64,000 bases of DNA from Myxococcota bacterium (GCA_024278455.1 JAJRTE010000082.1:16026-80025); one strand, 5' to 3'. Counted from the first letter of the stretch, positions 2,569-30,825 are shown. The notes: generated by a model not told the origin, from the letters alone. Made by a program: numbers and translations.

Positions 2569-4281
2569 ATGACAAGCTTCCGCGGAAGTACTGCAACCCT
2601 CTTGCTGGCTTCGTTGCTGGTGTCGGCGCCCGGCTGCGGCGACGGAGGAGAAGAAGCCACCCCTGTCCACTACGATCGGATCATCACCGGGTACGTCATC
2701 GACAGTGACGGGGCGCCCGTCGAGGGTGCCACGGTCCAGGACCAGGACAGTTTCTATGTAGCGCAGACCAACTACCTGGGCCAGTTCGTCATCGGCATGG
2801 AAGTCGACGACGGCAGCGACGGTATCCTGTTGACCGCCACGAAGCCGGGATACCTGGCAAACAGCGCGTCGATCCCGTTCGTTGACGCCACCAGCCATTT
2901 CACGACCACGATCACGCTGCTTCCCGGCGAAGTGCAAACGCTCGATGCCACGACCGGGGGCGAGTTGGTCTTTGCGGAAGGCAAGCTGATCCTGAACTTC
3001 GGCCCCAACTGCATGATGGACGAGTTCGGCAACCCGATCGACGGCGAAGTCGATGTAATGGTGCAGTACACGGAGCCGGAAGACCTGGTTCCGGAACGAT
3101 TGCCGGTTCCGAGCATGAACGCATGGGATCCGTCGTCTCCTGACGCGCCGGTGGGTCTGTCCAGCTACGGCATGTTCTCCATGGAGATCTACCAGGGGGA
3201 GGAGCGGGTGTACCCGGCGAGCGGCACGGAGTTCGGCATCGAATTGACCACGATGGGTCGATTCATCGACGCCGAATGCACAGACCGCGCCGCGGGGTGC
3301 AACGGTATCGCGCCAGATTCCACCGTGCCGTTCTGGACGATGGACGAGGGGTCGGATACCTGGGATTTCGCGGGCTGGTTCACGGTCATCGACTACGGTC
3401 CGTCGGACGAACAACAAAAGGCCGGTGCCGCCACCGAGGACGACCTGGTGGACACCGACGAGACGCGGTACTCGGTCTACGTGGACGTTGAAGTCGGCAC
3501 GTCCGGGTCGCCGCCGCCGCAGACCGTTTCCTACAACTGCGACGACCGGTCCATCCTGAGCTGCATGCGGGGCAAGGTGGAGGCCGGCGGGCTGCACGGC
3601 AGCACCGAGTCGACGCTGGATCCTCGAGATAGTCTCAGCTACGAACCGGTCTCTGGCGCCTGGGTGGGATTCCAGGGGCTCGGCATGGCAGACTTCTGCA
3701 CCCAGTGCGAATGTATCCGCCAGGTCGAGAAGGAGGTCTGCAACGACCCCGACGATGCCAACGACGACGGAGATCGCGAATGCTACACCACCTACGTGGA
3801 TGAGTCCCGGCTCGTCGGACCGGTGGGCAGCGGCGCTGGCAACGACCCGTGCCCCCCGTCCCCCGGAGACAAGTCCTGTAGCTGTACGCAGTGGGATCGC
3901 CGCTTCGACGTGCCCTATGCCGGGTCGGCCTACACCGACGCCAACGGCGAATACTGCGCCAACGTCGGACAGCGTATCGACCACGGCACGGTTCTCAAGG
4001 AGTGGATGATCACCGAGAGCAACCCGGACAACGGGTCGCCGTCCACCTACGCGGTCCGGTACGAGTACCACGAAGACCTGAGCAAGAATCGTGAACTCCA
4101 GGGTCTGAAACCGAACAATATGTGCGAAGACGGCTCCTCGGCGTCGTGCGGGACCTGGAACCACCAGATCCCGTGCGAATGGTTCTGGATGAACGACGCT
4201 TGCGTCATCGTGGGCGGGTGCGAGACGTTCCACATGAACGCTTACGACGACGACGAATACTACCAGGGTTGGTACAAGTAG
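2569..4281 (+). CDS. secreted cysteine-rich lipoprotein, function unknown
   Basis: GGAGG RBS, followed by signal peptide and lipobox 'LLLASLLVSAPGC'. 570 aa. The C-terminal third is rich in Cys, Asp and Trp (for example 'CTQCECIRQVEKEVCNDPDDANDDGDRECY'), suggesting a disulfide- or metal-rich extracytoplasmic domain. Confidence 0.7.
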   Translation: MTSFRGSTATLLLASLLVSAPGCGDGGEEATPVHYDRIITGYVIDSDGAPVEGATVQDQDSFYVAQTNYLGQFVIGMEVDDGSDGILLTATKPGYLANSASIPFVDATSHFTTTITLLPGEVQTLDATTGGELVFAEGKLILNFGPNCMMDEFGNPIDGEVDVMVQYTEPEDLVPERLPVPSMNAWDPSSPDAPVGLSSYGMFSMEIYQGEERVYPASGTEFGIELTTMGRFIDAECTDRAAGCNGIAPDSTVPFWTMDEGSDTWDFAGWFTVIDYGPSDEQQKAGAATEDDLVDTDETRYSVYVDVEVGTSGSPPPQTVSYNCDDRSILSCMRGKVEAGGLHGSTESTLDPRDSLSYEPVSGAWVGFQGLGMADFCTQCECIRQVEKEVCNDPDDANDDGDRECYTTYVDESRLVGPVGSGAGNDPCPPSPGDKSCSCTQWDRRFDVPYAGSAYTDANGEYCANVGQRIDHGTVLKEWMITESNPDNGSPSTYAVRYEYHEDLSKNRELQGLKPNNMCEDGSSASCGTWNHQIPCEWFWMNDACVIVGGCETFHMNAYDDDEYYQGWYK

Positions 4282-4387
4282 CCGGTCGTGAGCACAGGGC
4301 CGGCCGCACCGTGGTTCCGGGCACCGGCCGGCAAGGCGTCTACAAGTCGCATCGACTCGAGTCGATGTTATCGAAAAGGAGTTTCAA

Positions 4388-5164
4388 ATGAAGCGGAGCT
4401 TGCTGTTCATTGGCGTACCGTTCCTCCTGGCAGGATGCAGCTCCTCGAGCAGTTCCCCCCAGGAGAGCGAGATGGTCGAGATCCCGGCCGGGCAGGTCAC
4501 CATGGGTGACGCCAGCGGCGTTCGGTACGACGCGCCGGTCCGGGTCGCCGACATTTCCTCCTTCAAGATCGACAAGTACGAGGTGACCAACCTCCAGTAC
4601 CGGCAATGTGTCACCGCGGGAGTCTGCACGCCCCCGTCGATGAACGGTTTCGACGTGATTCCCGACTACTACACCAGCGCGAAGTACAACAACTACCCGG
4701 TGACCTACGTGAACTGGTTCCAGGCCGCACAGTACTGCGACTGGGCCGGCAAGCGGCTGCCCACCGAAGCCGAATGGGAATACGCGGCTCGAGGCGACGA
4801 CGGGAGGACCTATCCCTGGGGCGACGAGGATCCCACGTGCGAGTACGCGCAGTTCGGCGAGTGCAACAATGACGATGGCTTGCTGACGCCTCGAGAGGTC
4901 GGCTCGTTCGCCAAGGGCGCCTCCCCCTTCGGCGTCATGGATATGGGCGGCAACATGTCCGAATGGGTCCAGGATTGGTATGACGTGGACGCCTACCGGG
5001 CCTTCCAGGACGGCGACGCTCCCGTATCCCCAGCAGCGGGCATCAGCAAGATCCTGCGCGGCGGTTCCTGGTGGTGCGAGAGCTTCCGGATGAACGCCTC
5101 CCTGCGGGAGCCCATGACGCCTGTCTACCGCGGGGGCAACGTCGGGTTCCGCTGCGCGCAGTAG
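4388..5164 (+). CDS. formylglycine-generating-enzyme (FGE/SUMF1)-like domain lipoprotein
   Basis: Lipoprotein signal 'FLLAGCSSSSSS'. FGE-sulfatase domain hallmarks are present: 'YPVTYVNWFQAAQYCDWAGKRLPTEAEWEYAARG', 'RGGSWWC' and a C-terminal 'GFRCAQ'. Only one of the two catalytic Cys of canonical FGE appears retained (WWCESFRM). Confidence 0.85.
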   Translation: MKRSLLFIGVPFLLAGCSSSSSSPQESEMVEIPAGQVTMGDASGVRYDAPVRVADISSFKIDKYEVTNLQYRQCVTAGVCTPPSMNGFDVIPDYYTSAKYNNYPVTYVNWFQAAQYCDWAGKRLPTEAEWEYAARGDDGRTYPWGDEDPTCEYAQFGECNNDDGLLTPREVGSFAKGASPFGVMDMGGNMSEWVQDWYDVDAYRAFQDGDAPVSPAAGISKILRGGSWWCESFRMNASLREPMTPVYRGGNVGFRCAQ

Positions 5165-5317
5165 CGACCGGAGTCTGGAGCCCCACCGGATAGCTTCATC
5201 TCACCGGCACGTGCCGCCCCCTCCCCTTTCAAGCTCATCAACGACCAACCAAGGTTCCCCCGCACACGCTATCCGTTTCAGGCAATCCCCCCCCACGGAA
5301 GAAGCTGTCCCGCTGTC

Positions 5318-5704
5318 TCAAGTCACAGCGTCCGCCAGCGCGAACGCGCTGCCCGGAACATCGCCGTAACGATTCTCCTCCGGCTCGCCCTTCAGCGTCA
5401 TCAGGTACAGGAGAATCAGCATGCCGATGAACGGAACGAAGGCCAACAGAATCCAGTATCCGCTACGCCCGGTGTCGTGGAGCCGCCTTACCGTCAGCGC
5501 CAAGGAGGGAAGGGTCACGGCGAGCACATAGACCTGGGCAAGCACAGGAAACCCAAACGTTTCGGGTGTTTTCGAGACGATGTCGAGAACGAGCGCCGCC
5601 GCCTCGATGAGCAAGCTGATCAGGGTGAAGACCCAAAACTCCTTCCTGCCGGAGCGGCCGTGGAATACCGCGAATTTGCTCAAGACTTCCCAGTAGATGC
5701 CCAT
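5318..5704 (-). CDS. DUF805 family inner-membrane protein
   Basis: Start at 'MGIYWEVLSKFAVFHGRSGRKEFWVF', the typical DUF805 N-terminus. The signature 'RRLHDTGRSGYWILL' plus flanking TM helices is present. The upstream in-frame extension in the ORF track (to 6100) lacks DUF805 features and was trimmed. Confidence 0.75.
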   Translation of the reverse strand: MGIYWEVLSKFAVFHGRSGRKEFWVFTLISLLIEAAALVLDIVSKTPETFGFPVLAQVYVLAVTLPSLALTVRRLHDTGRSGYWILLAFVPFIGMLILLYLMTLKGEPEENRYGDVPGSAFALADAVT

Positions 5705-5929
5705 GATATCCTCCTCCAGTGCTTGCGGCTTGGACTCGCCCGTTCCCTCCGGCGTAACACCGGTGGCGCGGGCCTCTGAGCCCGTGTCCTGTCGTGGGCG
5801 GTAGCCCGAAACAGGTTTCCTGCCTGGCATGGCCCGATCATCCTGCGTGCCAGCGCGAACCCAGGGCCGAAAGCGCCGCAACATCCTGTATTTCATGGGA
5901 TAGTCGATTCTCGGACATCTTCGACGGAA

Positions 5930-5977
5930 GTCCGGATTCCGGACTCGAGGCCGAACGGTGTCCGGATTCCGGACACC
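5930..5977. repeat. two copies of the GC-rich palindrome GTCCGGATTCCGGAC, the second extended to GGTGTCCGGATTCCGGACACC
   Basis: Seen directly at 5930-5944 and 5957-5977. Each forms a perfect 7-10 bp stem hairpin. They sit in the 390-bp gap between the 3' end of the YeeE-rhodanese gene (6093) and the DUF805 start (5704). Confidence 0.35.
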
Positions 5978-6092
5978 TCGCGGGCCGCCCGCGACGATGC
6001 CTTCGCCGCCACCAGCTCCTGGTTCGGAGCTTCGATCCGCGCGACCAGAACGGCCCGTGGCGGCGCGGCGGAAACCCAGCGGGCGTCGGCCC

Positions 6093-7430
6093 CTACCCAC
6101 ACCCGCCGGTCACGGCTTTCTTGCGAACCAGCTTGACCTTGTGGACGAAGGGCATCTTCGGCCCTTCCGGGACATGCACGCCGGCCGCGGAGTGGGCTTC
6201 GGACGCATCGTGCACCATCTCGAGGTAACAGTCGGTGGGGATTTCCTTGTAGGCGAGTTCGGGATAGGCGGTATTGCAGCAGTCTCCCACTGCGCGAAAA
6301 TAGGTATAGGCGGGGGTGTCGTCCGCATGAGGTTCCCCGGCCGGTTTCCCCAGGCACGGGGGCGGCGGGAAGACCTCGTGCCAGCGGTTTATCCCCCCCT
6401 CCACGATGTACACGTTGGGAAGGCCTCGAGCCTTGAGCCGCTTCCACGCCTCGGTGGCCGCCTTTTCATCCCAGGACACAGTGAAGAAGACGGTGTTGGC
6501 AGGCATGGCGGCGAGTGTCTTCACGAATGCGGCGTCCGCCAACCGGTCCAGGGAGACGGACCGGGAATTTCGCAGGTGAAAAAGGTTGTAGTCCGCCTCG
6601 GGGCGAACGTCCAGGATGACCGTGTAGACATTGGTGTCCCGGGTGAGTTCGGCGACTTCGAGAGGATGCGCATAGACGGAGCGGTCCTCGAGCAGCTTCC
6701 CGGCTTCCGGAGCGATGCGCGCCCACAAATCGCTGGGGGAGGGGTCGCCCTTCGCGGCGGTCACGACAGCGGCGAGGACCAGGAGGCCGACGGCGGCCCA
6801 GGAGGCCAACCTGCGCGGGAGCAGGCGCAGTTCCTCCTCGTTCTTGCCATCCCCGAACCTGGCTTCTGCAACCTCCGCGAGCATGAAAGAGAACAGGCCC
6901 ATGGCCGCCACGAACAGGAGCATCGTCCCGGTGCTGGTGTGGAACACCTCGGGCAGCGTGAGATGGCCGTAGTTCGATGACAGCCAAAAGCCCTCGAACG
7001 CCGGCAACGTGAGACCGAACAGGAAGATGCCCATGCCGGCGCCAACGAGGAACACGATTCCGTCGATCTTCAGAGTCGCGGCCGACACCACCGAGGTCCC
7101 GGGGCAGAAGCCTCCTATCATGAATCCCACCCCCATCGCAAGCCCGCCGGCGATCCCGGGCCAAAGATACGTGGGGTTGATCCACACCTGGGTCATGTCG
7201 ATCCAGCCGAACGAACTGAACATCCCCAGGATAACGGCAGTCATGACCACCGCGCCGAACATCACCTTGAGAACGGTCATGTCCTTGAGATAGAACTGGC
7301 CGGTCAGCTTCCTCGAATCGCCGAAACCAGCCATCTCGAGGACCCCGCCGAACCCGACGCCGATGAGGAATGAAACGATGTAGACGGTCGTCGTGCTCCA
7401 TTCCATGGTACGAGCGAAAGGACCCATCAT
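6093..7430 (-). CDS. YeeE/YedE-family sulfur-compound (thiosulfate-type) transporter half fused to a C-terminal rhodanese domain
   Basis: GAGGAGG RBS. The N-terminal 200 aa are polytopic with Gly-rich helices and a 'GGFCPGTSVV' motif, the YeeE/YedE-type conserved Cys in a Gly-rich loop. The C-terminal soluble domain carries the rhodanese-like 'VILDVRPEADYNLFHLRNSRSVSLD' signature. Confidence 0.8.
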   Translation of the reverse strand: MMGPFARTMEWSTTTVYIVSFLIGVGFGGVLEMAGFGDSRKLTGQFYLKDMTVLKVMFGAVVMTAVILGMFSSFGWIDMTQVWINPTYLWPGIAGGLAMGVGFMIGGFCPGTSVVSAATLKIDGIVFLVGAGMGIFLFGLTLPAFEGFWLSSNYGHLTLPEVFHTSTGTMLLFVAAMGLFSFMLAEVAEARFGDGKNEEELRLLPRRLASWAAVGLLVLAAVVTAAKGDPSPSDLWARIAPEAGKLLEDRSVYAHPLEVAELTRDTNVYTVILDVRPEADYNLFHLRNSRSVSLDRLADAAFVKTLAAMPANTVFFTVSWDEKAATEAWKRLKARGLPNVYIVEGGINRWHEVFPPPPCLGKPAGEPHADDTPAYTYFRAVGDCCNTAYPELAYKEIPTDCYLEMVHDASEAHSAAGVHVPEGPKMPFVHKVKLVRKKAVTGGCG

Positions 7431-7439
7431 CCCACCTCC

Positions 7440-7964
7440 TCAATTCCAGGCTTTTCTGACGAACCACGCGGTGAGGTAGCCGCCAGCGAAGAATGCCAGG
7501 AGGAAGGCCCAGCTTCCCGCTGCCAGGACGGCGCCACCGCTCAGGCCTTGACCGGACGTGCAGCCTCGAGCCATTCTCGCGCCCCACCCCACGATGATGC
7601 CGCCGACCAAAGCGAGGGCGAGTCGGACGGGCGTGCTGATCCGGGGTCCTTTGCGCACTTCCGGCTTGACTCTCCTGAAGGCCAGGCCGGAAAGCAGGCC
7701 CCCCACCAGCACGCCGGCCAACATGGGGACCAGCGGATTCGCGAGGGGATTCTTGCTCCCCCCGGCCGTGTGCGCAAAGTAGGCGTTGTGATCGACCAGG
7801 CCGGGAGCCAACTTGGAAATGACCGCGAGTTGTATGCGGTCTATCCCACCCGAAGCGCCAAGACCGCCTCCGGTCAGCCAGAACGCCAGGAACAGCACGA
7901 GACCCAGGAGGGCGCCGGACAGGTAGGGATTCACGTAGGATGGCGTACCGTTGTCGTATTTCAT
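7440..7964 (-). CDS. YeeE/YedE-family transporter half (DUF395/Sulf_transp)
   Basis: Start 'MKYDNGTPSYVNPYLSG' preceded by a GGGGGAAAGG RBS. It has the classic YeeE motif 'ARGCTSGQGLSGGA'. 174 aa, four predicted TM helices. Its ATG overlaps the upstream gene's stop (ATGA). Confidence 0.8.
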   Translation of the reverse strand: MKYDNGTPSYVNPYLSGALLGLVLFLAFWLTGGGLGASGGIDRIQLAVISKLAPGLVDHNAYFAHTAGGSKNPLANPLVPMLAGVLVGGLLSGLAFRRVKPEVRKGPRISTPVRLALALVGGIIVGWGARMARGCTSGQGLSGGAVLAAGSWAFLLAFFAGGYLTAWFVRKAWN

Positions 7965-10204
7965 GACCTTTCCCCCTGTGACGTTCTCGCCGCACCGGGT
8001 TCGACGATATCCCACCCGGTCAACATCGCTTCGATATTGGATGTGATCGTGTGCCCGGTCGTCGTCAGGTAGACGTGCGTGACCAGGAAGGTCAGAAACA
8101 GCCACGACCCCAGGTTGTGCAACGGGGCAACGAGCGACAAGCCACCGAACGCCACGGCGTTGTCCGGCATCAGCCCGGCGACCCACAGCAGGAGCCCGGT
8201 AACCACCTGGAACGGGAACAGCACGTTCAGGAGCCCGGCATAGGTGAACTGCTGCAACGGATTGAGCTTGCTTTGCCGCGTCTTGACGAACGGGTGCGAC
8301 GCGCCGACGAAAATGCCGGTCAGGTAGTACTGCGCCTGGATCCAGAGCCGTCGCGCCAGGCCCGCGCCTTCCGGCACGAACTGCCGGATTTCACCAGTGG
8401 CCAGGTGGTAGAACATCCCCAGGAATGCGTTGACCAGCAGCACCACGGCAAAGAAGTTGTGGACGAACACCGCGGTCGGATACCCCATCGGCGCGAATCG
8501 GTCCGGGTAGTGGACCTGGAACCCGGTCAAGAGCAACATCACGATGCTCGAGGCCATGGTCCAGTGCCAGATTCTCTCGTACACCCCATACATGTAGGCC
8601 CGTTCGTGCTCCACCTCCTCCTCGCGGCTGCCGCGTGCCTTCACGGCACGCACGGTGCCGTGGGCGGCCACGCCGAGAATCGCCAGCACGAAAACCCAGA
8701 AACCGATGGTATCGCTCCAGGGGCGGCGACTGTGTCCCAGGACGTAGTGCCCCACAGGCTCGGCGTTCCCGGCAAGAACCAGCCCCCCGTCGGCCTGCTC
8801 CACCGTCCTCCCGGCCATCAGGCGGGCGGTCTTCTCGTCCGGCACCGGAATGACCCCGCCCGGGAAGGGCCCCGACGCCAGGGGGAGGACCTCGTTGAAG
8901 CGCGACCTGTCGTCGTGGCAGCTCTGACAGTCGTTTTCGACCCACTTGCCCTCGACGACCCCGTGCCGAATGGGATAGGCCGTCACCCTGCCGGCGATAC
9001 GCGGGGCTGCCACGCCAAGCGCTTCGAGCCGGGACCGGATGACACCGACCTTCTCTTCCGAGTCGAGGACCAACTCGTCCTTGCTCAGTCGTCCGTCGTG
9101 GTTCGCGTCGCACCGCGCCACGATATCGGCGTGATACGTACCATCCTCGTTCGTCCACGCCCTGGCCACCGTCTCCAGGGGCACGGCAGTGCCCGCCTCC
9201 CCCGATACCCACTCCCATACAGTGACGAGGTTGAACGGAGAGAAGGTGTCCCGCCCATCCAGGGATTCATGAAGCAAGGCCGGTCGATACCCTTTCTCGT
9301 ACCAGGTGTTCGGATTCTGCCGCCCGGGCCCGGGTTCCACCTCCCGGAACCCCATCCGTGGTCCCAGGTCCGAAGTCGTCACCGTCCGGTCCAGGTACTC
9401 GAGGGCGAGTCCGCGCAACGTGGGTACATGGCACGCCTGGCAGGCGAGGCTGTCCGTGTGACGCTTCGGATAGGGGAATCCTTTGTGCGCCTCCTCGACA
9501 TCGTGACAGGATTCGCACGACGCCGTGGCGAACCGGTGATCGGGCCGCCGGAGATAGGCCGCGAGATCCAGGGTCCTGGGATCCCGTACCAGGTGAGACG
9601 GTCCAGGCTTCTCGAGAAGCCCGGCACGGGCCGGATCGTTCGACGGATAGTGACAGGAAATGCAGTGAACGCCCCGGGCCGCATGCACATCCCACGGGTA
9701 GGCCAGGCCGGACTTCCCCTCGAGATTCACGTGAGAGAAGGAGAGAAGCTGCGGAGAGAATATCTCGCCGGTCGCGAGCGTGCGCCAGTACGGGCCTGGT
9801 TCCTCGCCTCGCAGAACACCGGGACGATACTCGAAGAAGGCCTTGTCCTTGTGGACCACCCCGTGACATCGACCGCAAACGGTACAGTCGGGCGGCGTCA
9901 TTTGCCTGTCGAGGCGACCCTGGGCGTCAAAATCCGCGCCCGAAACGCCTTCGAGCCCCCCCTCGAGGTGACACTGGAAACAGGAAACGGTCACACCCGC
10001 GGCGCCGTGGGTGCTGTGCGCAGCGATGAAGCCCGTGTCATGGCACTGGCCGCACGTCTCGATATCGGACACACGCTCGATGGCCTCCCCGGTCACCGGA
10101 GCCCCACCGGCGTCCCTGAGCACGAAGGCCGGGTGCAGGTTCTCCGCGCCAAGCGCGGGCCAGGCGAAGCCCAACACGAACAGCAGGAAGCTCGAGGCTT
10201 TCAT
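7961..10204 (-). CDS. multiheme cytochrome c (7 CxxCH) fused to a dihaem cytochrome b membrane domain; CbcL-like quinol:cytochrome oxidoreductase
   Basis: Signal peptide 'MKASSFLLFVLGFAWPALGA'. Heme motifs: CGQCH, CFQCH, CGRCH, CISCH, CESCH, CQACH, CQSCH. The C-terminal 250 aa has 5-6 TM helices with conserved His pairs, consistent with FdnI/HydC-type (PF01292-like) cytochrome b. Confidence 0.85.
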   Translation of the reverse strand: MKASSFLLFVLGFAWPALGAENLHPAFVLRDAGGAPVTGEAIERVSDIETCGQCHDTGFIAAHSTHGAAGVTVSCFQCHLEGGLEGVSGADFDAQGRLDRQMTPPDCTVCGRCHGVVHKDKAFFEYRPGVLRGEEPGPYWRTLATGEIFSPQLLSFSHVNLEGKSGLAYPWDVHAARGVHCISCHYPSNDPARAGLLEKPGPSHLVRDPRTLDLAAYLRRPDHRFATASCESCHDVEEAHKGFPYPKRHTDSLACQACHVPTLRGLALEYLDRTVTTSDLGPRMGFREVEPGPGRQNPNTWYEKGYRPALLHESLDGRDTFSPFNLVTVWEWVSGEAGTAVPLETVARAWTNEDGTYHADIVARCDANHDGRLSKDELVLDSEEKVGVIRSRLEALGVAAPRIAGRVTAYPIRHGVVEGKWVENDCQSCHDDRSRFNEVLPLASGPFPGGVIPVPDEKTARLMAGRTVEQADGGLVLAGNAEPVGHYVLGHSRRPWSDTIGFWVFVLAILGVAAHGTVRAVKARGSREEEVEHERAYMYGVYERIWHWTMASSIVMLLLTGFQVHYPDRFAPMGYPTAVFVHNFFAVVLLVNAFLGMFYHLATGEIRQFVPEGAGLARRLWIQAQYYLTGIFVGASHPFVKTRQSKLNPLQQFTYAGLLNVLFPFQVVTGLLLWVAGLMPDNAVAFGGLSLVAPLHNLGSWLFLTFLVTHVYLTTTGHTITSNIEAMLTGWDIVEPGAARTSQGERS

Positions 10205-11619
10205 AGCGGCTCCCCCCCTTGCATCGGATCACCGGTGTAGCCGAGCGCGACCCAGTCCAGTCTGCCAGTGTTCCCGTGGCAATCCATGCACCGGAGCGCT
10301 CTCTCCTTGGGTTGAACCATGTGGTTGATGGGCCAGTACATCTCGGTCTCGATGAAGTCGTACTGACCGCTGTAGGGAATCCCGGTGTACCGGGTCGCCA
10401 GCCTCGACGCCTCGTCCCAGTCGAAGTCATGCCAGTATCCGCCCTTGCCATAGGTCAGCGGCGCGAGCAGCACGGCGTTGACCGGATCGTAGATCTGCTT
10501 CCCCCGGTGGACCTTGAACGGCCAGACCTTCGACCCGGGAACACCCGGCCCGCCAATCGGGTGGTTTATCTGCACCGGCCCGTCCCCCACAATCCGATCC
10601 CCGGCCAGGTAGTGCTCCGACTTCCCGTTGAACCAGTAGTACTCCGGTACGACCTTGCGCTCGTACCGGAACTCCCCCTTGATCTTCAAGTAGTGGTGAA
10701 CGTCGTCCTCGCGCGTGTCGTCGCCCGCCTTGGACCAGTCCCACCACATCTTGGTCGGGATCGAGTTGGCGAACGTGGGCACGTGACAGGTATGGCAGGC
10801 CACCTTCTCGACATGCTGATTGAGCCGCACGTCGGCGTGAGGCGCGCTGCCATGGCACCCCGTGCACCCTACGCCGTCATCGTCGTTGGAACTCACCGAC
10901 ATGGACTTGCCCCGAATCGTGTGCCCAGGCCCCTCGTGGCAATCGATGCAGGAAAACCCGAGCCGGCCCATGTGCACATCGTCGTAGGCGTCCGGGTTGT
11001 CCAACGTCGTGTCCAGGTCTCCGTGCTTGACCGCAAGCCCACCGCCCCCGTAGCTGTGACAGGAGTTGCAAGCCCCCCGCGTCGGCCAGCCCACGCTCTT
11101 CGCAGCAGCAAGCAGATCGGCGTCCTTCCGGGGCCAACCCCCCTTGGTCTTGGCATAACCGCCCGAATGGTCGTGACACACCAGGCAGTCCATGCGGCTG
11201 AGATCGTCAAAGTCGAAATCCGCATCCTCCCAGCCGTATCCAGCATGACACTTGGTGCAGGCCGCCCAGTTCCCCTGGATCGAAATGCAGAAATTGTTCA
11301 AAACGTTCTTCTTGCCAAGCCTCCTCGAGCCCTCGTTACCCGGAACATGCTCCTCCTCCCCAAGCCACTCCCAGTGGGGCGTGCGCCGAAACTGCCGAGC
11401 CTCCTCCTCGTGACACGCCAGACAGGCTCGAGTCACATCCTGCCCGCTCGCGAACGGTTCGGTGAAAAAGGCCGAGTGGTCGAGGTGCGGCCGCGGACCG
11501 GGCCGGACCGGCTCTCGCTGGCCGGCACGAGAGTCACCCGACCACCAGGCGATGGCCACGATCGCCGCCAGGATTGGAATGACCGCGAGAACTCCCCGAT
11601 ACGGCCTGAACGACTGCAT
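10201..11619 (-). CDS. octaheme c-type cytochrome (OTR/ONR/HAO-like family)
   Basis: N-terminal anchor/signal 'VLAVIPILAAIVAIAWW'. Eight CxxCH motifs: CLACH, CTKCH, CLVCH, CNSCH, CIDCH, CTGCH, CHTCH, CMDCH. The 472-aa size matches octaheme tetrathionate/nitrite reductase-type enzymes. Its stop overlaps the downstream start (ATGA). Confidence 0.85.
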   Translation of the reverse strand: MQSFRPYRGVLAVIPILAAIVAIAWWSGDSRAGQREPVRPGPRPHLDHSAFFTEPFASGQDVTRACLACHEEEARQFRRTPHWEWLGEEEHVPGNEGSRRLGKKNVLNNFCISIQGNWAACTKCHAGYGWEDADFDFDDLSRMDCLVCHDHSGGYAKTKGGWPRKDADLLAAAKSVGWPTRGACNSCHSYGGGGLAVKHGDLDTTLDNPDAYDDVHMGRLGFSCIDCHEGPGHTIRGKSMSVSSNDDDGVGCTGCHGSAPHADVRLNQHVEKVACHTCHVPTFANSIPTKMWWDWSKAGDDTREDDVHHYLKIKGEFRYERKVVPEYYWFNGKSEHYLAGDRIVGDGPVQINHPIGGPGVPGSKVWPFKVHRGKQIYDPVNAVLLAPLTYGKGGYWHDFDWDEASRLATRYTGIPYSGQYDFIETEMYWPINHMVQPKERALRCMDCHGNTGRLDWVALGYTGDPMQGGEPL

Positions 11620-11748
11620 GGTTGGCTCCCCGTCCCTCGAAACCGGCCGGCATCACCCTGCCCAACGTACTTCCGCAACCGCTCACATCCTTGCAGGGAC
11701 ATGCCCCGGACATGATTTCTCGACCAGTTCCGTCGGCGTTCTAGGTGT

Positions 11749-11774
11749 TATCGCAATATCGCTATATTGCGATA
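11749..11774. promoter_or_regulatory. AT-rich inverted repeat TATCGCAATAT-CGCT-ATATTGCGATA in the divergent intergenic region (candidate operator)
   Basis: Seen directly. 10-bp arms ATCGCAATAT (11750-11759) and ATATTGCGAT (11764-11773). It is markedly AT-rich for this genome. It lies about 130 bp upstream of the cytochrome operon start (11619, minus) and about 200 bp upstream of the 11972 gene (plus). Confidence 0.35.
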
Positions 11775-11971
11775 GTCGAATCTGTTGCCTCTAATACACA
11801 CGGTTCCCCTCCATGTCAACCGCAATTCTTCGCGCGCCATCTGCTTCTTCGGTCCGCGACAGCCAGAATCACTGCTGCGTGTGCATTCCTGGCGACAGCA
11901 CGCAAGCCATGCCGGGGCGAACCGTGCTACACTGCTGGCAGGAGAGGATTGCACCCTGTAGGAGGTACCCC

Positions 11972-14077
11972 ATGACGACCACCGCGCCCTTGCTCGTCCT
12001 ACTACCCTTTTTGTTCCTTCCCGGGTCCGGTACGGCCACGGCGGCTTCGGTGTCCCTTGACGACGCTGTGTCGAGCCGGACGACTCCGGCGGCGCCGGTT
12101 GCTTCGAAGGAGTTGCCCGAAGACTTCGAGCCGCCCTGGTGCCGGAACTGGTACCCGGATTGTGATGGGGACGGCTTCGGCGACATGTCGGCGCCGCTCT
12201 ACACATGCCAGAACCCGAACCTGACGGACGACACGTCGTCGTGTCCTTACCGGCGCAACGATCTGGACTGCAACGACACGGATTCGGTAATCAATCCGAA
12301 GGCGGCCGAAGACATCATGGGATCCCACGACGGTGTGGACAACGACTGCGACGGCGTGGTCGACCTCGACTGCGACGGCACATCCGCGACGGCCGTTCCC
12401 TGGATCTGGATCGAGACGCCGGAGCGGGGCGTGTTCGCGCCGGATGCGCCCATGCGCGTCACCGGCGTGGTCTACCCCGCGAACGACCGTGTGCCGCTCG
12501 CGATGGTGACTGTTGGTGGCCAGGATGCGACGCTGACCTCCTGCAGCCGGGACGGCGGGGTATGGTTCGAGGCCACGGTGCCGCTCGCGACCGGCGTGGA
12601 CACCATCGATGTCCGCGCGACCGATGAGCAGGGTCGGAGCGACCGGGCGCTCACCTCGTGTGCCCATTCGGACGTCTTTCTGCCCCTGCGCGATGGGGTC
12701 CCGATCACCGGCTCGCTGGTCACCCTGCTCAACCAGGGCACGTGGGACATACTCGGCGAGTACCTCGAGTCTCTCCTCACGGCCGAGGAACTCCAGTCGG
12801 AACTCCTGGCGTCCAATCCATTGGTTTCCGAATCGGGGTCCGACGATTGCCTCGAGGAATACTGGATAACGGCCAGCGCAACCGGCTATACCCACGACGA
12901 CGTGGACGTGAGTTTCGTCGTGACCGGCGGCCACATCGCCACCACGGCGCGGTTGGTGCACCCCCAGATGTGGGCCACCGGCACCGGCTACTACGAACTC
13001 GAGTGGTACTGCGGTGGTTGGGACGACACGGTAGGGATGACCGGGTACATGGCCTTCTCCGAGGTCGTTGCCACGGCCAATGCCTGGCTGAGCCTGACCA
13101 GTGATGGCCAGGTCGCGGTCAGCTTCACCGACGTGTACGTGGATGCTCGAGGCGCCACCGTGGACGTGGACGCGGACGACTGGTTCTACGACTGGCTGAT
13201 CGACCTGTTCGAGTCGGAGATGGAGGACGAGTTGGAGGGCTTCATCGAGGACGAACTGGCCGACTACGTGGCGAACGACCTGGGCCCCGACCTGGCCGAG
13301 GAACTCAACAGCCTGGACATGGACTATGACCTGGACGTCGACGGCGTCCCCTACGGCGTGACGCTGGACTACGACGCGCTGGATGTGATCGATGGGTCCG
13401 TCGTGCTCGGTTTCGGCATGGGTCTGAGCTATGAACCCGACCCCTCCGCACCGGTGAATCCGGGCATGGTGACCTTTCCCGCCGGGTACACCGTGGACGT
13501 CGCGCCGACTTTCGGCCTCGAGGTCGGAGTGAACTTCTTCAACGCGGCCTTGCACGCACTGTGGGAGGGAGGCAACCTGTCGATATCGAGCGAGTTGTGG
13601 TCGGATCCGGCGATCGAAGGCCTGGCCACGCCGCTTCTCCCCCCGGTCATCGGCCCGAGCACTTCGGACTACCTGCTCGAGCTGTCCCTGGGCGACGTGC
13701 TCGTGGGGCTGGTGATCTCGGCTCCGGAAGGCGATCCGACCTTGATCGACGTGGCGCTATCAGCCAAGGTGCAACTGGACATCGACCCTGTGCTGGAGGA
13801 TGGCATGATCGGGTTCGACCTGGCGTTCGCCCCTGCGGAGATCTCCTACGATCCGCTGGGCGACATTCCCATTCCCGCCGAACTCCTCGAGGCCACGGAA
13901 GGTGCGCTCGAGGCGTTGGCCGACGAAATACTGGCCGAACTGGAGGTGTACCTCGAGGAGATGCAGATCAGCTACCTGGACCTGCCGCTCGACATCACCG
14001 GCCTGCGGCTCGAAACAGACTCGGGCAATCCGGCCATGCTGTCGCTGTCGGGAGAAGCGGTCTACACGGGCCCCTGA
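11972..14077 (+). CDS. secreted acidic protein with N-terminal MopE-like putative metal-binding motifs
   Basis: GGAGG RBS and signal peptide 'MTTTAPLLVLLPFLFLPGSGTATAAS'. The motifs 'YPDCDGDGFGD', 'CNDTDSVINP' and 'DNDCDGVVDLDCDG' are followed by a long Asp/Glu-rich domain. The ORF-track start (11813) lacks an RBS or signal, so the start was moved to 11972. Confidence 0.65.
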   Translation: MTTTAPLLVLLPFLFLPGSGTATAASVSLDDAVSSRTTPAAPVASKELPEDFEPPWCRNWYPDCDGDGFGDMSAPLYTCQNPNLTDDTSSCPYRRNDLDCNDTDSVINPKAAEDIMGSHDGVDNDCDGVVDLDCDGTSATAVPWIWIETPERGVFAPDAPMRVTGVVYPANDRVPLAMVTVGGQDATLTSCSRDGGVWFEATVPLATGVDTIDVRATDEQGRSDRALTSCAHSDVFLPLRDGVPITGSLVTLLNQGTWDILGEYLESLLTAEELQSELLASNPLVSESGSDDCLEEYWITASATGYTHDDVDVSFVVTGGHIATTARLVHPQMWATGTGYYELEWYCGGWDDTVGMTGYMAFSEVVATANAWLSLTSDGQVAVSFTDVYVDARGATVDVDADDWFYDWLIDLFESEMEDELEGFIEDELADYVANDLGPDLAEELNSLDMDYDLDVDGVPYGVTLDYDALDVIDGSVVLGFGMGLSYEPDPSAPVNPGMVTFPAGYTVDVAPTFGLEVGVNFFNAALHALWEGGNLSISSELWSDPAIEGLATPLLPPVIGPSTSDYLLELSLGDVLVGLVISAPEGDPTLIDVALSAKVQLDIDPVLEDGMIGFDLAFAPAEISYDPLGDIPIPAELLEATEGALEALADEILAELEVYLEEMQISYLDLPLDITGLRLETDSGNPAMLSLSGEAVYTGP

Positions 14078-18747: not shown

Positions 18748-18976
18748 TTCCAGGTAGGCCTGCAGTCGAGATCTTGTACCAGGTTCCATCGGTTCGACCT
18801 CCTGCAAAGGGGGGTTGGCAGAAGCTGGACACCATCCCAGGTGTGAAGACTCCGGGCCTCTGCCGCCACTATGTCCACTGATCAGGATGCCTGAAAATGC
18901 CGATGGTTAGCAAGAAATCGGTCTGGGAAAGCTGCCTGGTTCCTGACAGGCGCTGGTCAACTTCGTCGAGACAGGG

Positions 18977-30697: not shown

Positions 30698-30825
30698 CTC
30701 TCCCCGAAACGTTTTTCTGTCAAGTCCGACACAACGTCGTTGAAGTCTTCCAGTGCGAGTGCTAACATGAATCCGCCTGCCATTTGTGGCTTTTCAGCAC
30801 GTTCGAATGTATCAGGAGGTTTGCA

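What the first reader, a model, noticed from the sequence alone, without database searches (positions are those of the whole stretch)
6093..11619. Translationally coupled operon: octaheme cytochrome c, CbcL-like c/b fusion, split YeeE/YedE transporter, rhodanese
Four minus-strand genes are packed with ATGA start/stop overlaps at 10201-10204 and 7961-7964 and a 10-bp gap at 7430-7440. Gene order is an 8-heme OTR/ONR-type periplasmic cytochrome, then a 7-heme cytochrome c fused to a dihaem cytochrome b (the architecture of Geobacter CbcL quinol oxidoreductases), then two YeeE/YedE (thiosulfate-uptake family) halves, the second fused to a rhodanese sulfurtransferase. A coherent reading is a quinol-driven periplasmic reduction of tetrathionate, thiosulfate or polysulfide by the octaheme enzyme, with import of the product through a heterodimeric YeeE-type channel and cytoplasmic sulfane-sulfur handling by the fused rhodanese. 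The canonical partner of YeeE is a TusA-like protein, not rhodanese. I am not aware of a described system linking an OTR-type reductase, a CbcL-type quinol dehydrogenase and a YeeE importer.
Basis: partly seen in the sequence, partly recalled or inferred. Interest (0 to 1): 0.75.

Follow-up and report, generated by a model that had tools for sequence, protein, structure and literature searches.

The report
Octaheme reductase, split YeeE, cysteine-arm carrier
This is a real four-gene operon, conserved across many bacterial phyla and apparently undescribed, that joins a quinone-linked octaheme "tetrathionate reductase"-type enzyme to a two-piece sulfur channel carrying a periplasmic domain with a SoxY-like terminal cysteine arm, which may point to what this enzyme family acts on in cells.

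Summary
Four minus-strand genes, at 10201-11619, 7961-10204, 7440-7964 and 6093-7430, are packed with two ATGA overlaps and a 9-nt gap containing GGAGG. They encode an 8-haem OTR-family cytochrome, a 7-haem c/dihaem b fusion, and two YeeE/YedE halves, the second fused to a rhodanese fold.

The set is not a chance neighbourhood. Among 65 related loci with enough flank, 63 carry the same colinear A-B-C-D genes. These loci come from Myxococcota, Chloroflexota, Eisenbacteria, Spirochaetota, Acidobacteriota and others. One genome has all six modules as separate, overlapping genes.

- The rhodanese domain lacks the catalytic cysteine.
- An extra transmembrane helix places this domain in the periplasm, not the cytoplasm.

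My best reading is that quinol reaches the octaheme enzyme through the bc protein. The enzyme then acts on sulfur held on, or captured by, the tethered cysteine arm. That sulfur is relayed through the two channel cysteines into the cell. The direction of electron flow and the substrate are inferred, not shown.

Eight literature searches (a ninth concerned CbcL, a tenth TsoR) found no description of this system. Novelty: new variant of a known kind. Interest about 0.7.

The parts
10201..11619 (-). Gene A: periplasmic OTR-family octaheme cytochrome c (472 aa) with an N-terminal signal/anchor helix. It has 8 CxxCH motifs. K103, C111 and K198 correspond to Lys56, Cys64 and Lys153 of Shewanella OTR.
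   Evidence: TIGR04315 540.7 bits against a cutoff of 375; 1SP3, E=3e-140; these residues are invariant in 63 sequences; 50.4% identity to 1SP3.
8705..10204 (-). Gene B, N-terminal part (about aa 1-500): signal peptide plus a periplasmic 7-haem cytochrome c domain.
   Evidence: 7 CxxCH. (all 7 motifs invariant in 65 orthologues). It is a separate 674-aa gene in L081.
7961..8704 (-). Gene B, C-terminal part (about aa 501-747): membrane dihaem cytochrome b (PF01292) with conserved H547, H582, H696 and H710. This is the presumed quinol/quinone site.
   Evidence: 85.3 bits. (best NCBIfam hit is PhsC at 119 bits, below the 204 cutoff).. It is a separate 218-aa gene in L081.
7440..7964 (-). Gene C: YeeE/YedE C-terminal half, equivalent to helices H8-H13 of StYeeE. 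It has invariant Cys135 flanked by R130 and R133, and this Cys is equivalent to the periplasm-facing Cys293 of StYeeE.
   Evidence: PF04143 positions 177-309. (aligned to 6LEO residues 267-327, GGC with RGC).. Topology from PMC7449682.
6852..7430 (-). Gene D, aa 1-193: YeeE/YedE N-terminal half (H1-H6) plus the H7-like helix. It has invariant GGFC109PGTS, equivalent to Cys91 of StYeeE on the cytoplasmic side. The Cys22 equivalent is Gly.
   Evidence: PF04143 positions 11-192. (invariant columns). (AF2 helices).
6750..6809 (-). Gene D, aa 208-227: an extra transmembrane helix after a K/R-rich cytoplasmic loop (aa 189-207). It carries the chain back to the periplasm.
   Evidence: the loop averages 4.1 K+R over 85 sequences. 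(helix 208-227). (the same helix is the N-terminal signal anchor of the stand-alone 210-aa protein).
6372..6668 (-). Gene D, aa 255-353: rhodanese-fold domain without the catalytic cysteine (F-x-V-S-N/W-D-E in place of the CxxGxR loop). It is predicted to be periplasmic.
   Evidence: PF00581 46.2 bits. (nearest is the Cys-less Alr3790 domain). (pLDDT above 90). (Foldseek returns rhodanese folds only). (no conserved Cys in this stretch).
6096..6140 (-). Gene D, aa 431-445: conserved C-terminal tail KVKLVRKKAVTGGCG. The Cys444 codon is at 6099-6101 and the stop at 6093-6095. It is a disordered, SoxY-like cysteine arm.
   Evidence: G442 and C444 invariant. (73 of 82 D-family ORFs end in GGCG). 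(residues 441-445 have pLDDT below 50). The SoxY GGCGG motif is cited from PMC6067878.
7435..7439 (-). GGAGG Shine-Dalgarno sequence in the 9-nt C/D spacer. Together with the ATGA overlaps at 10201-10204 and 7961-7964 it indicates translational coupling.
   Evidence: junction sequences.

Best explanation
The operon encodes one membrane-bound machine for a periplasmic sulfur-compound redox step, coupled to passage of sulfur across the membrane. B is anchored by its dihaem cytochrome b domain. It exchanges electrons with the quinone pool and passes them along its seven c-haems to A, an OTR-type octaheme enzyme with a lysine-ligated catalytic haem. C and the first half of D assemble into one YeeE/YedE-type channel with a single cysteine per half: C-Cys135 faces the periplasm and D-Cys109 faces the cytoplasm. 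An extra helix in D puts a catalytically dead rhodanese-fold domain in the periplasm. The flexible C-terminal ...GGCG tail of that domain (Cys444) acts as a swinging-arm sulfur carrier. Most likely sequence (inferred): an oxidised sulfur species such as tetrathionate, thiosulfate or polysulfide becomes bound to Cys444 as a thiosulfonate or polysulfide adduct. A then cleaves the S-S bond with electrons from quinol. The resulting sulfane sulfur or thiosulfate is handed from the arm to C-Cys135, then to D-Cys109, then to a cytoplasmic acceptor. Shown here: family assignments, conservation of the gene set, loss of the rhodanese Cys, the invariant Cys tail, and fusion/fission of the modules. Strongly inferred: the periplasmic location of the carrier. 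Inferred only: that the arm visits A's active site and the channel mouth, the identity of the substrate, and the reductive direction.
For: Conserved module. 63 of 65 informative loci from at least 10 phylum-level groups are colinear A-B-C-D. The D family has at least 2,939 clusters and occurs in at least 588 species genomes. Rosetta-stone evidence. L081 carries OTR, the 7-haem c protein, cytochrome b, the YeeE C-half, the YeeE N-half and the anchor+rhodanese+GGCG protein as six genes with overlapping starts and stops. Its N-half ends in the cytoplasmic loop (…SRKEVR), and the carrier starts with a positively charged signal anchor. A has an intact OTR active site, with the equivalents of K56, C64 and K153 invariant. 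B keeps all 7 CxxCH motifs and 4 b-haem His residues. Carrier. The rhodanese catalytic Cys is absent and the GGCG tail is near-universal and disordered. In many stand-alone versions the tail Cys is the only Cys. Topology. It follows from the StYeeE structure, which is N-out with H7 reversing the topology (PMC7449682), and from K+R counts. Channel. The C-Cys135 region aligns with StYeeE Cys293. Cys91 and Cys293 are essential in StYeeE and Cys22 is dispensable. Half-size YedE1E2 pairs with one essential Cys each import zero-valent sulfur (PMC10812762). Independent link between OTR and Cys-arm carriers. In lucinid symbionts otr lies next to a divergent soxY and soxZ (PMC11237559). Reductive direction. 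OTR is a reductase in vitro, and otr is induced 36-fold by tetrathionate in Acidobacteriota microcosms (PMC8528874). B's b domain is closest to PhsC, and the bc-fusion type matches the quinol oxidase CbcL. ArsR/SmtB regulators, weakly BigR-like, lie upstream of A in 34 of the 80 loci.
Against: There is no experimental datum for any member of this cassette. The physiological role of OTR is unresolved. The otr deletion in Shewanella has no tetrathionate phenotype, in vitro tetrathionate activity is low, and nitrite and hydroxylamine activities are higher (PMC12949373). OTRs of Shewanella, Marinobacter and Malonomonas have no such partners, so a Cys-arm partner is not a general requirement of the family. 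FdnI/HydC-type cytochromes b can also reduce quinone, so the direction is open. One genome has ArsR+C+D without A and B (L050), so the channel and carrier can function without the cytochromes. The SoxY resemblance covers a five-residue motif only.
Confidence: 0.5

Rival explanations
1. Oxidative version of the same machine. A oxidatively couples sulfide or thiosulfate to Cys444 of the arm, as SoxXA does with SoxY, or acts as a haem-based equivalent of sulfide:quinone oxidoreductase. Electrons flow from A to B to quinone. With an FdnI/HydC-type b domain this would form a proton-motive redox loop. The carrier-bound sulfane sulfur is then imported through C/D for cytoplasmic oxidation or detoxification.
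For: The GGCG arm is the signature of SoxY, which is loaded oxidatively by a haem enzyme (PMC6067878). ArsR/BigR-like regulators and half-size YedE pairs are typical of sulfide or persulfide detoxification operons. YeeE-like SoxT proteins import sulfur for cytoplasmic oxidation and signalling to ArsR-type repressors (PMC11582611, abstract). PF01292 cytochromes b in Fdn and Hyd reduce quinone (one search shows secondary hits to both).
Against: All measured OTR activities are reductive, and thiosulfate oxidase activity is very low (PMC12949373). The host lineages (Myxococcota, Anaerolineae, Eisenbacteria) are not known sulfur lithotrophs. Thiosulfate/tetrathionate at +198 mV cannot reduce menaquinone, so only sulfide or polysulfide oxidation would be feasible. 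No PDO, sHdr or Dsr genes recur next to the cassette.
Confidence: 0.22
2. A reduces free tetrathionate, thiosulfate or polysulfide in the periplasm. The soluble product enters through a heterodimeric YeeE channel. A cytoplasmic rhodanese fused to the channel processes the sulfane sulfur.
For: The family assignments are correct. Full-length YeeE imports thiosulfate (PMC7449682). OTR reduces tetrathionate in vitro.
Against: The rhodanese domain has no catalytic Cys in any of 85 homologues. There are two hydrophobic helices after H6, so the domain is periplasmic. The stand-alone form has a signal anchor. The model leaves the invariant GGCG tail unexplained.
Confidence: 0.07
3. A is physiologically a nitrite/hydroxylamine reductase or a sulfite reductase fed by B. 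C and D are an accessory anion channel or sensor, for example for sulfite or for signalling to the ArsR regulator, and do not handle A's substrate.
For: OTR's best in vitro activities are on nitrite and hydroxylamine, and a sulfite reductase role was proposed for Shewanella OTR (PMC12949373). OTR is structurally related to NrfA, HAO and MccA according to the same paper.
Against: The coupling to a sulfur-family channel and a Cys arm is obligatory: 63 of 65 loci, gene fusions and translational coupling. No nitrogen-cycle genes recur nearby. The sulfite variant is compatible with a carrier-bound mechanism and therefore overlaps the best explanation.
Confidence: 0.1
4. A selenium or tellurium oxyanion system. 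A reduces selenite, the arm cysteine captures the selenide or selenotrisulfide, and the YedE-type channel imports it.
For: YedE family proteins are linked to selenium metabolism by comparative genomics (PMC5322559, listed). C gives a weak hit to the YedE/FdhT selenium model (33.9 bits). D gives a weak hit to a rhodanese-related (seleno)protein model.
Against: Those scores are far below the cutoffs (350 and 115). No selD, selA or yedF genes appear among the recurrent neighbours. There is no precedent for OTR acting on selenite.
Confidence: 0.05

Closest known systems
Shewanella oneidensis octaheme tetrathionate reductase OTR (PDB 1SP3; TIGR04315)
   Same: A aligns over its full length (E=3e-140, 50.4% identity). 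It has the same 8 CxxCH motifs and the same Lys56, Cys64 and Lys153 equivalents.
   Different: In Shewanella and Marinobacter, otr sits in a monohaem-c / DUF3373 / otr cluster with no cytochrome b fusion, YeeE or Cys-arm protein. In Malonomonas it stands alone. Shewanella OTR is proposed in the literature to be fed via CymA (PMC12949373); that was not tested here.
Geobacter sulfurreducens CbcL (inner-membrane bc-cytochrome quinol oxidase)
   Same: The architecture is the same: a periplasmic multihaem c domain fused to a dihaem cytochrome b membrane domain (CbcL is described in bioRxiv 10.1101/2022.08.31.506072).
   Different: B has 7 c-haems against nine. Sequence relatedness could not be tested because no CbcL sequence was available. 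B's partner is a dedicated enzyme encoded in the same operon, not the extracellular electron-transfer chain. In some genomes B is split into two genes.
PhsC, cytochrome b subunit of thiosulfate reductase (NF011582)
   Same: It is the best-scoring curated model for B's b domain (119 bits over positions 26-245 of 248).
   Different: The score is below the equivalog cutoff of 204. PhsC partners with the Mo/FeS subunits PhsAB, not with c-type cytochromes.
YeeE/TsuA with YeeD/TsuB (thiosulfate uptake; PDB 6LEO, 8J4C)
   Same: Same PF04143 family. Equivalents of the essential Cys91 and Cys293 are present. A cysteine-bearing partner protein is physically attached to the channel.
   Different: The channel is split into two genes in C-half, N-half order. 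The Cys22 equivalent is absent. The partner is not TusA-like and sits on the opposite, periplasmic side. Scores against the TsuA equivalog models are far below cutoff.
YedE1E2 of Cupriavidus pinatubonensis (half-size pair, zero-valent sulfur importer)
   Same: Two half-size genes with one essential Cys per half, and association with an ArsR/SmtB regulator (PMC10812762).
   Different: YedE1E2 has no fused periplasmic domain and no cytochromes. Sequence-level relatedness was not tested here.
SoxYZ carrier of the Sox thiosulfate-oxidising system
   Same: A periplasmic carrier with a glycine-flanked cysteine at the very C-terminus (GGCGG in SoxY, GGCG here), presented to haem enzymes (PMC6067878). 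An otr-soxY-soxZ cluster exists in lucinid symbionts (PMC11237559).
   Different: The scaffold is a Cys-less rhodanese fold tethered to a membrane channel, not the SoxY/SoxZ fold. No SoxY Pfam match was found. The resemblance is at motif level only.
Sud/Psr of Wolinella (periplasmic rhodanese-like polysulfide carrier feeding a quinol-linked reductase). This comparison rests on my own knowledge, not on a tool result.
   Same: The logic is the same: a periplasmic rhodanese-fold sulfur carrier serving a quinol-dependent periplasmic sulfur reductase.
   Different: Sud uses the rhodanese active-site Cys and is soluble. Psr is a molybdoenzyme. No transporter is involved.

Membership tests
OTR family (TIGR04315, tetrathionate reductase family octaheme cytochrome c) | Whole-protein score above the curated NCBIfam cutoff, plus the PF11783 domain | tested here: met
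   540.7 bits against a cutoff of 375. PF11783 scores 205 bits.
OTR family (TIGR04315, tetrathionate reductase family octaheme cytochrome c) | Eight CxxCH motifs and the non-motif lysine (Lys56 of 1SP3) that ligates the catalytic haem | tested here: met
   8 CxxCH motifs. K103 aligns with Lys56 and is invariant in 63 sequences. The ligand role of Lys56 is from my recollection of Mowat et al. 2004.
OTR family (TIGR04315, tetrathionate reductase family octaheme cytochrome c) | Tetrathionate (or nitrite/hydroxylamine) reductase activity | not testable with these tools
   This needs enzyme assays.
ONR / TvNiR-type octaheme nitrite reductase | CxxCK motif for the catalytic haem | tested here: not met
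   A has no CxxCK motif. No ONR-type model appears among the Pfam/NCBIfam hits.
CbcL-type bc-cytochrome quinol oxidase | Multihaem c domain fused to a dihaem cytochrome b domain | tested here: met
   7 CxxCH motifs plus PF01292 with 4 conserved His residues.
CbcL-type bc-cytochrome quinol oxidase | Nine c-type haems and sequence orthology to GSU0274 | tested here: not met
   There are 7 haems, conserved in 65 orthologues, against nine in CbcL. Orthology was not tested because no CbcL sequence was available.
PhsC (thiosulfate reductase cytochrome b, NF011582 equivalog) | Score above the equivalog cutoff | tested here: not met
   119.3 bits against a cutoff of 204. It is the closest curated model only.
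YeeE/YedE (PF04143 Sulf_transp) | Both halves match the family above the gathering score and together cover the whole profile | tested here: met
   C scores 70.8 bits (positions 177-309). D scores 43.6 bits (positions 11-192). The cutoff is 27.
YeeE/YedE (PF04143 Sulf_transp) | Conserved loop cysteines equivalent to StYeeE Cys91 and Cys293 (both essential) and Cys22 (dispensable) | tested here: met
   D-Cys109 and C-Cys135 are invariant. The C-Cys135 region aligns directly to StYeeE residues 267-327, which contain Cys293. D-Cys109 is assigned to Cys91 by motif (GGFCPG against GGCASG) and by Pfam register only, because phmmer found no YeeE hit for D's N-half. The Cys22 position is Gly in all D sequences. 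The functional roles come from PMC7449682.
TsuA/YeeE thiosulfate transporter equivalogs (NF041049, NF052577) | Score above the equivalog cutoff | tested here: not met
   17.6 and 31.8 bits against cutoffs of 645 and 400.
Rhodanese sulfurtransferase | Rhodanese fold | tested here: met
   PF00581 scores 46.2 bits. The AF2 domain has pLDDT above 90 and Foldseek returns rhodanese structures.
Rhodanese sulfurtransferase | Catalytic cysteine in the active-site loop after the central beta-strand | tested here: not met
   The loop reads F-x-V-S-N/W-D-E. No Cys is conserved between residues 228 and 358 in 85 sequences. The nearest solved relative is the Cys-less Alr3790 domain.
SoxY sulfur carrier | C-terminal glycine-flanked cysteine (GGCGG) on a flexible arm in the periplasm | tested here: inconclusive
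   73 of 82 ORFs end in GGCG. The tail is disordered in AF2. The periplasmic location is inferred. The agreement is at motif level only.
SoxY sulfur carrier | SoxY fold and family match, and a SoxZ partner | tested here: not met
   D has no SoxY or SoxZ Pfam/NCBIfam hit. No SoxZ-like recurrent neighbour was found.
YeeE-TusA/YeeD pairing | A TusA-like (CPxP) partner gene next to the transporter | tested here: not met
   The only recurrent neighbours in 80 loci are A, B, C, D, an ArsR regulator and a sigma-54 activator.

The most novel reading that the evidence does not exclude
In this cassette the true substrate of the OTR-type octaheme enzyme is not a free ion. It is a sulfur adduct carried on the C-terminal cysteine arm of a membrane-tethered protein. 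The same arm hands sulfur to a two-cysteine relay inside a split YeeE channel. That would make a haem-based, quinone-coupled counterpart of the SoxY and DsrC carrier-arm principle, physically fused to a transmembrane sulfur conduit. It would be a previously unrecognised way of coupling periplasmic sulfur redox chemistry to import, and a lead on the 20-year-old question of what OTR enzymes do in vivo.
Probability: 0.35. Interest if true: 0.85.

Novelty: new variant of a known kind. Interest (0 to 1): 0.72.

Why it matters
OTR was crystallised in 2004, yet its physiological role has never been established, and deletion mutants show no tetrathionate phenotype (PMC12949373). This cassette gives a subset of OTR enzymes an obligatory, genetically fused context: a dedicated quinone-linked electron input, a cysteine-arm carrier and a sulfur channel. 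That context makes a concrete hypothesis directly testable. The hypothesis is carrier-bound sulfur as substrate, tested by mass spectrometry of Cys444 adducts, a C444S mutant, and a soluble D(228-445) domain assayed with purified A. The cassette also shows a YeeE/YedE channel with a periplasmic rather than cytoplasmic cysteine partner. This bears on how sulfane sulfur or thiosulfate is fed into these channels. The system occurs in at least 588 species genomes across soil, sediment and wastewater lineages that are usually not counted as sulfur cyclers (Myxococcota, Anaerolineae, Eisenbacteria). Metagenome surveys currently record only 'otr' there (for example).

Tried and rejected
The closest relatives are Polyangiaceae and Myxococcales MAGs (L001, L023).
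2. phmmer of D's N-terminal half against the PDB gave no YeeE hit. The assignment rests on the Pfam match and the conserved motif.
3. B against the PDB gave no relative by sequence.
4. The promoter and terminator scan of 5200-12400 found nothing beyond the shuffled expectation, so it says nothing about a single transcript.
5. A literature search for 'TsoR', the closest curated model for the Chloroflexota-type ArsR regulator, returned only irrelevant hits.
6. The ONR reading was rejected because there is no CxxCK motif.
7. The cytoplasmic active-rhodanese reading was rejected.
8. I considered the generalisation that all OTRs use a Cys-arm partner. I rejected it because the Shewanella, Marinobacter and Malonomonas contexts lack one.
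9. I wanted to test whether the conserved C359 and C401 form a disulfide in the AF2 model, but coordinates are not exposed. Both cysteines are also absent from many stand-alone carriers, so they are not essential to the module.
10. The ArsR regulator found upstream of the cassette elsewhere is absent from the whole 64-kb window.
11. The 8 kb on either side of the operon (2.5-6 kb and 11.8-18.8 kb) holds no sulfur-related gene. The neighbours there are an FGE-sulfatase, a DUF805 protein and MopE-motif or FG-GAP secreted proteins.

Full report
**1. Observation**

The minus strand between 6093 and 11619 carries four consecutive ORFs.

| Gene | Coordinates | Length | Features |
|---|---|---|---|
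| A | 10201-11619 | 472 aa | 8 CxxCH |
| B | 7961-10204 | 747 aa | 7 CxxCH, then a hydrophobic C-terminal third |
| C | 7440-7964 | 174 aa | starts at the ATG overlapping B's stop; the mechanical ORF list extends it to an upstream GTG |
| D | 6093-7430 | 445 aa | |

The A/B and B/C junctions are ATGA overlaps. The C/D spacer is 9 nt and contains GGAGG.

- A scores 540.7 bits against the curated 'tetrathionate reductase family octaheme c-type cytochrome' model, whose cutoff is 375.
- B carries PF01292.
- C matches the C-terminal half of PF04143.
- D matches the N-terminal half of PF04143 followed by PF00581.

Small corrections are needed. The gap is 9 nt, not 10. 'ONR-type' is wrong, because A has no CxxCK motif.

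**2. A conserved system, not a chance neighbourhood**

An alignment of D homologues (A1) retrieved relatives in at least 588 species genomes. I analysed the best 80 loci. They come from Myxococcota including Anaeromyxobacteraceae, many Chloroflexota, Eisenbacteria, Leptospiraceae and other Spirochaetota, Acidobacteriota, Actinomycetota, Planctomycetota and a Lysobacterales MAG.

tblastn with the window's proteins shows A, B, C and D colinear on one strand in 63 of the 65 loci that have at least 5 kb upstream of D. The two exceptions are L050, which has ArsR+C+D only, and L030, which looks like an odd duplicated assembly.

All-against-all clustering of ORFs in these loci found only two further recurrent neighbours:
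- an ArsR/SmtB regulator just upstream of A in 34 loci, which is weakly BigR-like in Myxococcota with a two-Cys pattern and closest to 'TsoR' in Chloroflexota;
- a divergent sigma-54 activator in about 10 Anaeromyxobacter-like loci.

Neither is present near the window's operon.

**3. The cytochromes**

A aligns end to end with Shewanella OTR (1SP3, E=3e-140, 50.4% identity). In an alignment of 61 cassette orthologues, the window protein and 1SP3, three sets of residues are invariant:
- all eight haem motifs;
- K103, which aligns with Lys56, the unusual haem ligand as I recall it from Mowat et al. 2004;
- C111 (Cys64) and K198 (Lys153).

A is therefore a bona fide OTR-family member with an intact active site.

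B keeps all seven CxxCH motifs and four membrane His residues (H547, H582, H696, H710) in 65 orthologues. Its b domain scores best against PhsC, but below that model's cutoff. It has no solved relative by sequence.

[quoted passage not shown] The haem number differs, however, and orthology could not be tested.

**4. The channel**

The StYeeE structure paper (PMC7449682) gives the following topology:
- The N-terminus is outside.
- H1-H6 have their two re-entrant loops (Cys22, Cys91) entering from the cytoplasmic side.
- H7 is a linker helix that reverses the topology.
- H8-H13 have loops (Arg215, Cys293) entering from the periplasmic side.
- The C-terminus is inside.
- Cys91 and Cys293 are essential and Cys22 is dispensable.

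C aligns to StYeeE 267-327, with its RGC135TSG on the GGC293 motif. It has the charge pattern of an N-in, C-in half.

D residues 1-193 carry GGFC109PGTS, the Cys91-type motif. The Cys22 position is Gly.

Each half therefore has exactly one invariant cysteine. This is the pattern of the half-size YedE1E2 pair, which was reported to import zero-valent sulfur through two essential cysteines and which also sits next to an ArsR regulator (PMC10812762).

**5.

- The rhodanese domain has no catalytic cysteine. The loop reads F-x-V-S-N/W-D-E, and no Cys is conserved between residues 228 and 358 in 85 homologues. The nearest solved relative by sequence is the Cys-less Alr3790 domain.
- After the YeeE half there are two hydrophobic helices, not one. 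These are H7 (about 167-193) and an extra helix (208-227), separated by a loop averaging 4.1 Lys+Arg. The N-terminus and the 146-168 loop are acidic. AlphaFold2 on the 85-sequence alignment gives mean pLDDT 83.3 and pTM 0.82. It shows exactly these helices followed by a confident rhodanese fold. With the StYeeE topology as reference, the domain is periplasmic.
- The protein ends in ...KVKLxxKxAVKGGCG. G442 and C444 are invariant. Of 82 D-family ORFs in the diverse loci, 73 end exactly in GGCG, and most of the rest end in GGCS or GGCGG or run off a contig. The last five residues are disordered in the model. This is the signature of SoxY, whose C-terminal GGCGG cysteine carries sulfur intermediates on a swinging arm (PMC6067878).

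**6. Fusion and fission evidence**

A search of 1.84 billion representatives with D residues 229-445 found only 397 relatives. They include about 210-aa stand-alone proteins built from a positively charged N-terminus, one transmembrane helix, the Cys-less rhodanese domain and the ...GGCG tail. In many of them the tail Cys is the only cysteine.

One of these, P0292, lies in L081 (GCA_016932385.1). There the whole system is unfused:

| Module in L081 | Length |
|---|---|
| OTR (8 haems) | 500 aa |
| 7-haem cytochrome c with a C-terminal anchor | 674 aa |
| cytochrome b | 218 aa |
| YeeE C-half | 178 aa |
| YeeE N-half, ending after H7 in ...SRKEVR | 202 aa |
| anchored carrier | 210 aa |

All six genes have overlapping stops and starts. 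This shows two things. The six modules are one functional unit whatever the fusion state. The D fusion junction lies in a cytoplasmic loop, so the carrier is exported by a signal-anchor helix.

**7. Context from the literature**

- The physiological role of OTR has never been established. The otr deletion in Shewanella has no tetrathionate phenotype. In vitro tetrathionate activity is low and nitrite and hydroxylamine activities are higher. A sulfite reductase role has been suggested (PMC12949373).
- otr transcripts rose 36-fold after tetrathionate addition in sediment Acidobacteriota (PMC8528874).
- In lucinid symbionts a divergent soxY plus soxZ lie directly next to otr (PMC11237559). This is an independent association of OTR with a Cys-arm carrier.
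- OTRs close to the Shewanella enzyme have other contexts. In Shewanella and Marinobacter the gene sits in a monohaem c / DUF3373 / otr cluster, and in Malonomonas it is an orphan. The partner is therefore specific to this cassette subtype.
- Eight full-text searches directed at this system and the papers read gave no description of an OTR-bc-YeeE-carrier system. Genome papers simply list 'otr'.

**8. Mechanism**

*Shown.* The family identities, the conserved gene set, the dead rhodanese active site, the invariant terminal Cys arm, the one-Cys-per-half channel, and module fusion and fission.

*Strongly inferred.* The periplasmic location of the carrier.

*Inferred.* Electrons pass between quinone and A through B. 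Cys444 presents or captures a sulfur species at A's active site. The arm then delivers sulfur to C-Cys135 at the periplasmic funnel, which is flanked by invariant R130 and R133. From there it passes to D-Cys109 and a cytoplasmic acceptor.

I favour the reductive direction, in which quinol reduces an S-S bond. The substrate could be, for example, the Cys-S-S-SO3- adduct that thiols form with tetrathionate, or a carrier polysulfide. My reasons are that OTR activities are reductive, that tetrathionate induces otr, and that B resembles PhsC and CbcL. This is not demonstrated. An oxidative, Sox-like or SQR-like version is the main rival. Nitrogen-oxide and selenium readings are less likely.

**9. 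Verdict**

| Question | Verdict |
|---|---|
| Observation | confirmed |
| Novelty | a new variant built from known module kinds |
| Interest | about 0.7 |

Noticed in passing
L081:2701-8633 (GCA_016932385.1, JAFGCY010000088.1): An unfused six-gene version of the cassette: OTR, a 7-haem cytochrome c, cytochrome b, the YeeE C-half, the YeeE N-half, and a signal-anchored Cys-less rhodanese with a GGCG tail. All the genes have overlapping stops and starts.
   Followed up: yes
L002:4441-4770, L023:4474-4776, L031:3520-3843 and 31 further loci: An ArsR/SmtB-family regulator lies directly upstream of the OTR gene in 34 of 80 loci. The Myxococcota versions have a two-Cys pattern and weak BigR similarity. 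The Chloroflexota versions are closest to the 'TsoR' model. No such regulator is present anywhere in the 64-kb window.
   Followed up: partly
L050:7990-10119: An Anaerolineae MAG has ArsR plus the two YeeE halves and the rhodanese/GGCG module but no OTR or bc-cytochrome within 9 kb upstream. The channel and carrier can therefore occur without the cytochromes.
   Followed up: partly
L030:503-1591 and 6974-8317: Two near-identical copies of the D gene lie about 6.5 kb apart, without C, B or A. This could be a duplication, a mobile element or an assembly artefact.
   Followed up: no
L083:3694-7404 and L085:3900-7383: In Shewanella and Marinobacter the OTR gene is preceded by a roughly 109-aa monohaem cytochrome c and a roughly 570-aa DUF3373 protein. 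This is a different conserved context for the same enzyme family. In Malonomonas rubra (L084) otr is an orphan.
   Followed up: partly
L008, L010, L014, L020, L024, L059 (about 3100-4650, minus strand): A sigma-54-dependent activator lies divergently upstream of the cassette in Anaeromyxobacter-like MAGs.
   Followed up: no
Chloroflexota loci, e.g. L031:5287-6170, L042, L057: There is 700-900 bp of extra sequence between the end of A and the region of B that aligns with the window protein. B is about 870-930 aa there, against 747 aa in the window. The N-terminal extension has unknown content.
   Followed up: no
window:31756-34237 (within ORF 30784-34500, + strand): About 16 tandem copies of a 141-bp (47-aa) unit rich in D, G and C, of the MopE-like 'putative metal-binding motif' type. 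This array explains the AT-skew spike of 0.447 at 32-34 kb in the composition profile.
   Followed up: partly
window:4388-5164 (+), 5318-5737 (-), 11813-14077 (+), 14980-18807 (-): The operon's immediate neighbours are an FGE-sulfatase (SUMF1-like) protein, a DUF805 membrane protein, and two large secreted proteins with MopE motifs and FG-GAP repeats. None recurs next to the cassette elsewhere.
   Followed up: partly
window:34665-43898 (-): A 3,077-aa ORF lies in the most GC-rich part of the window (GC about 0.70). It was not examined.
   Followed up: no
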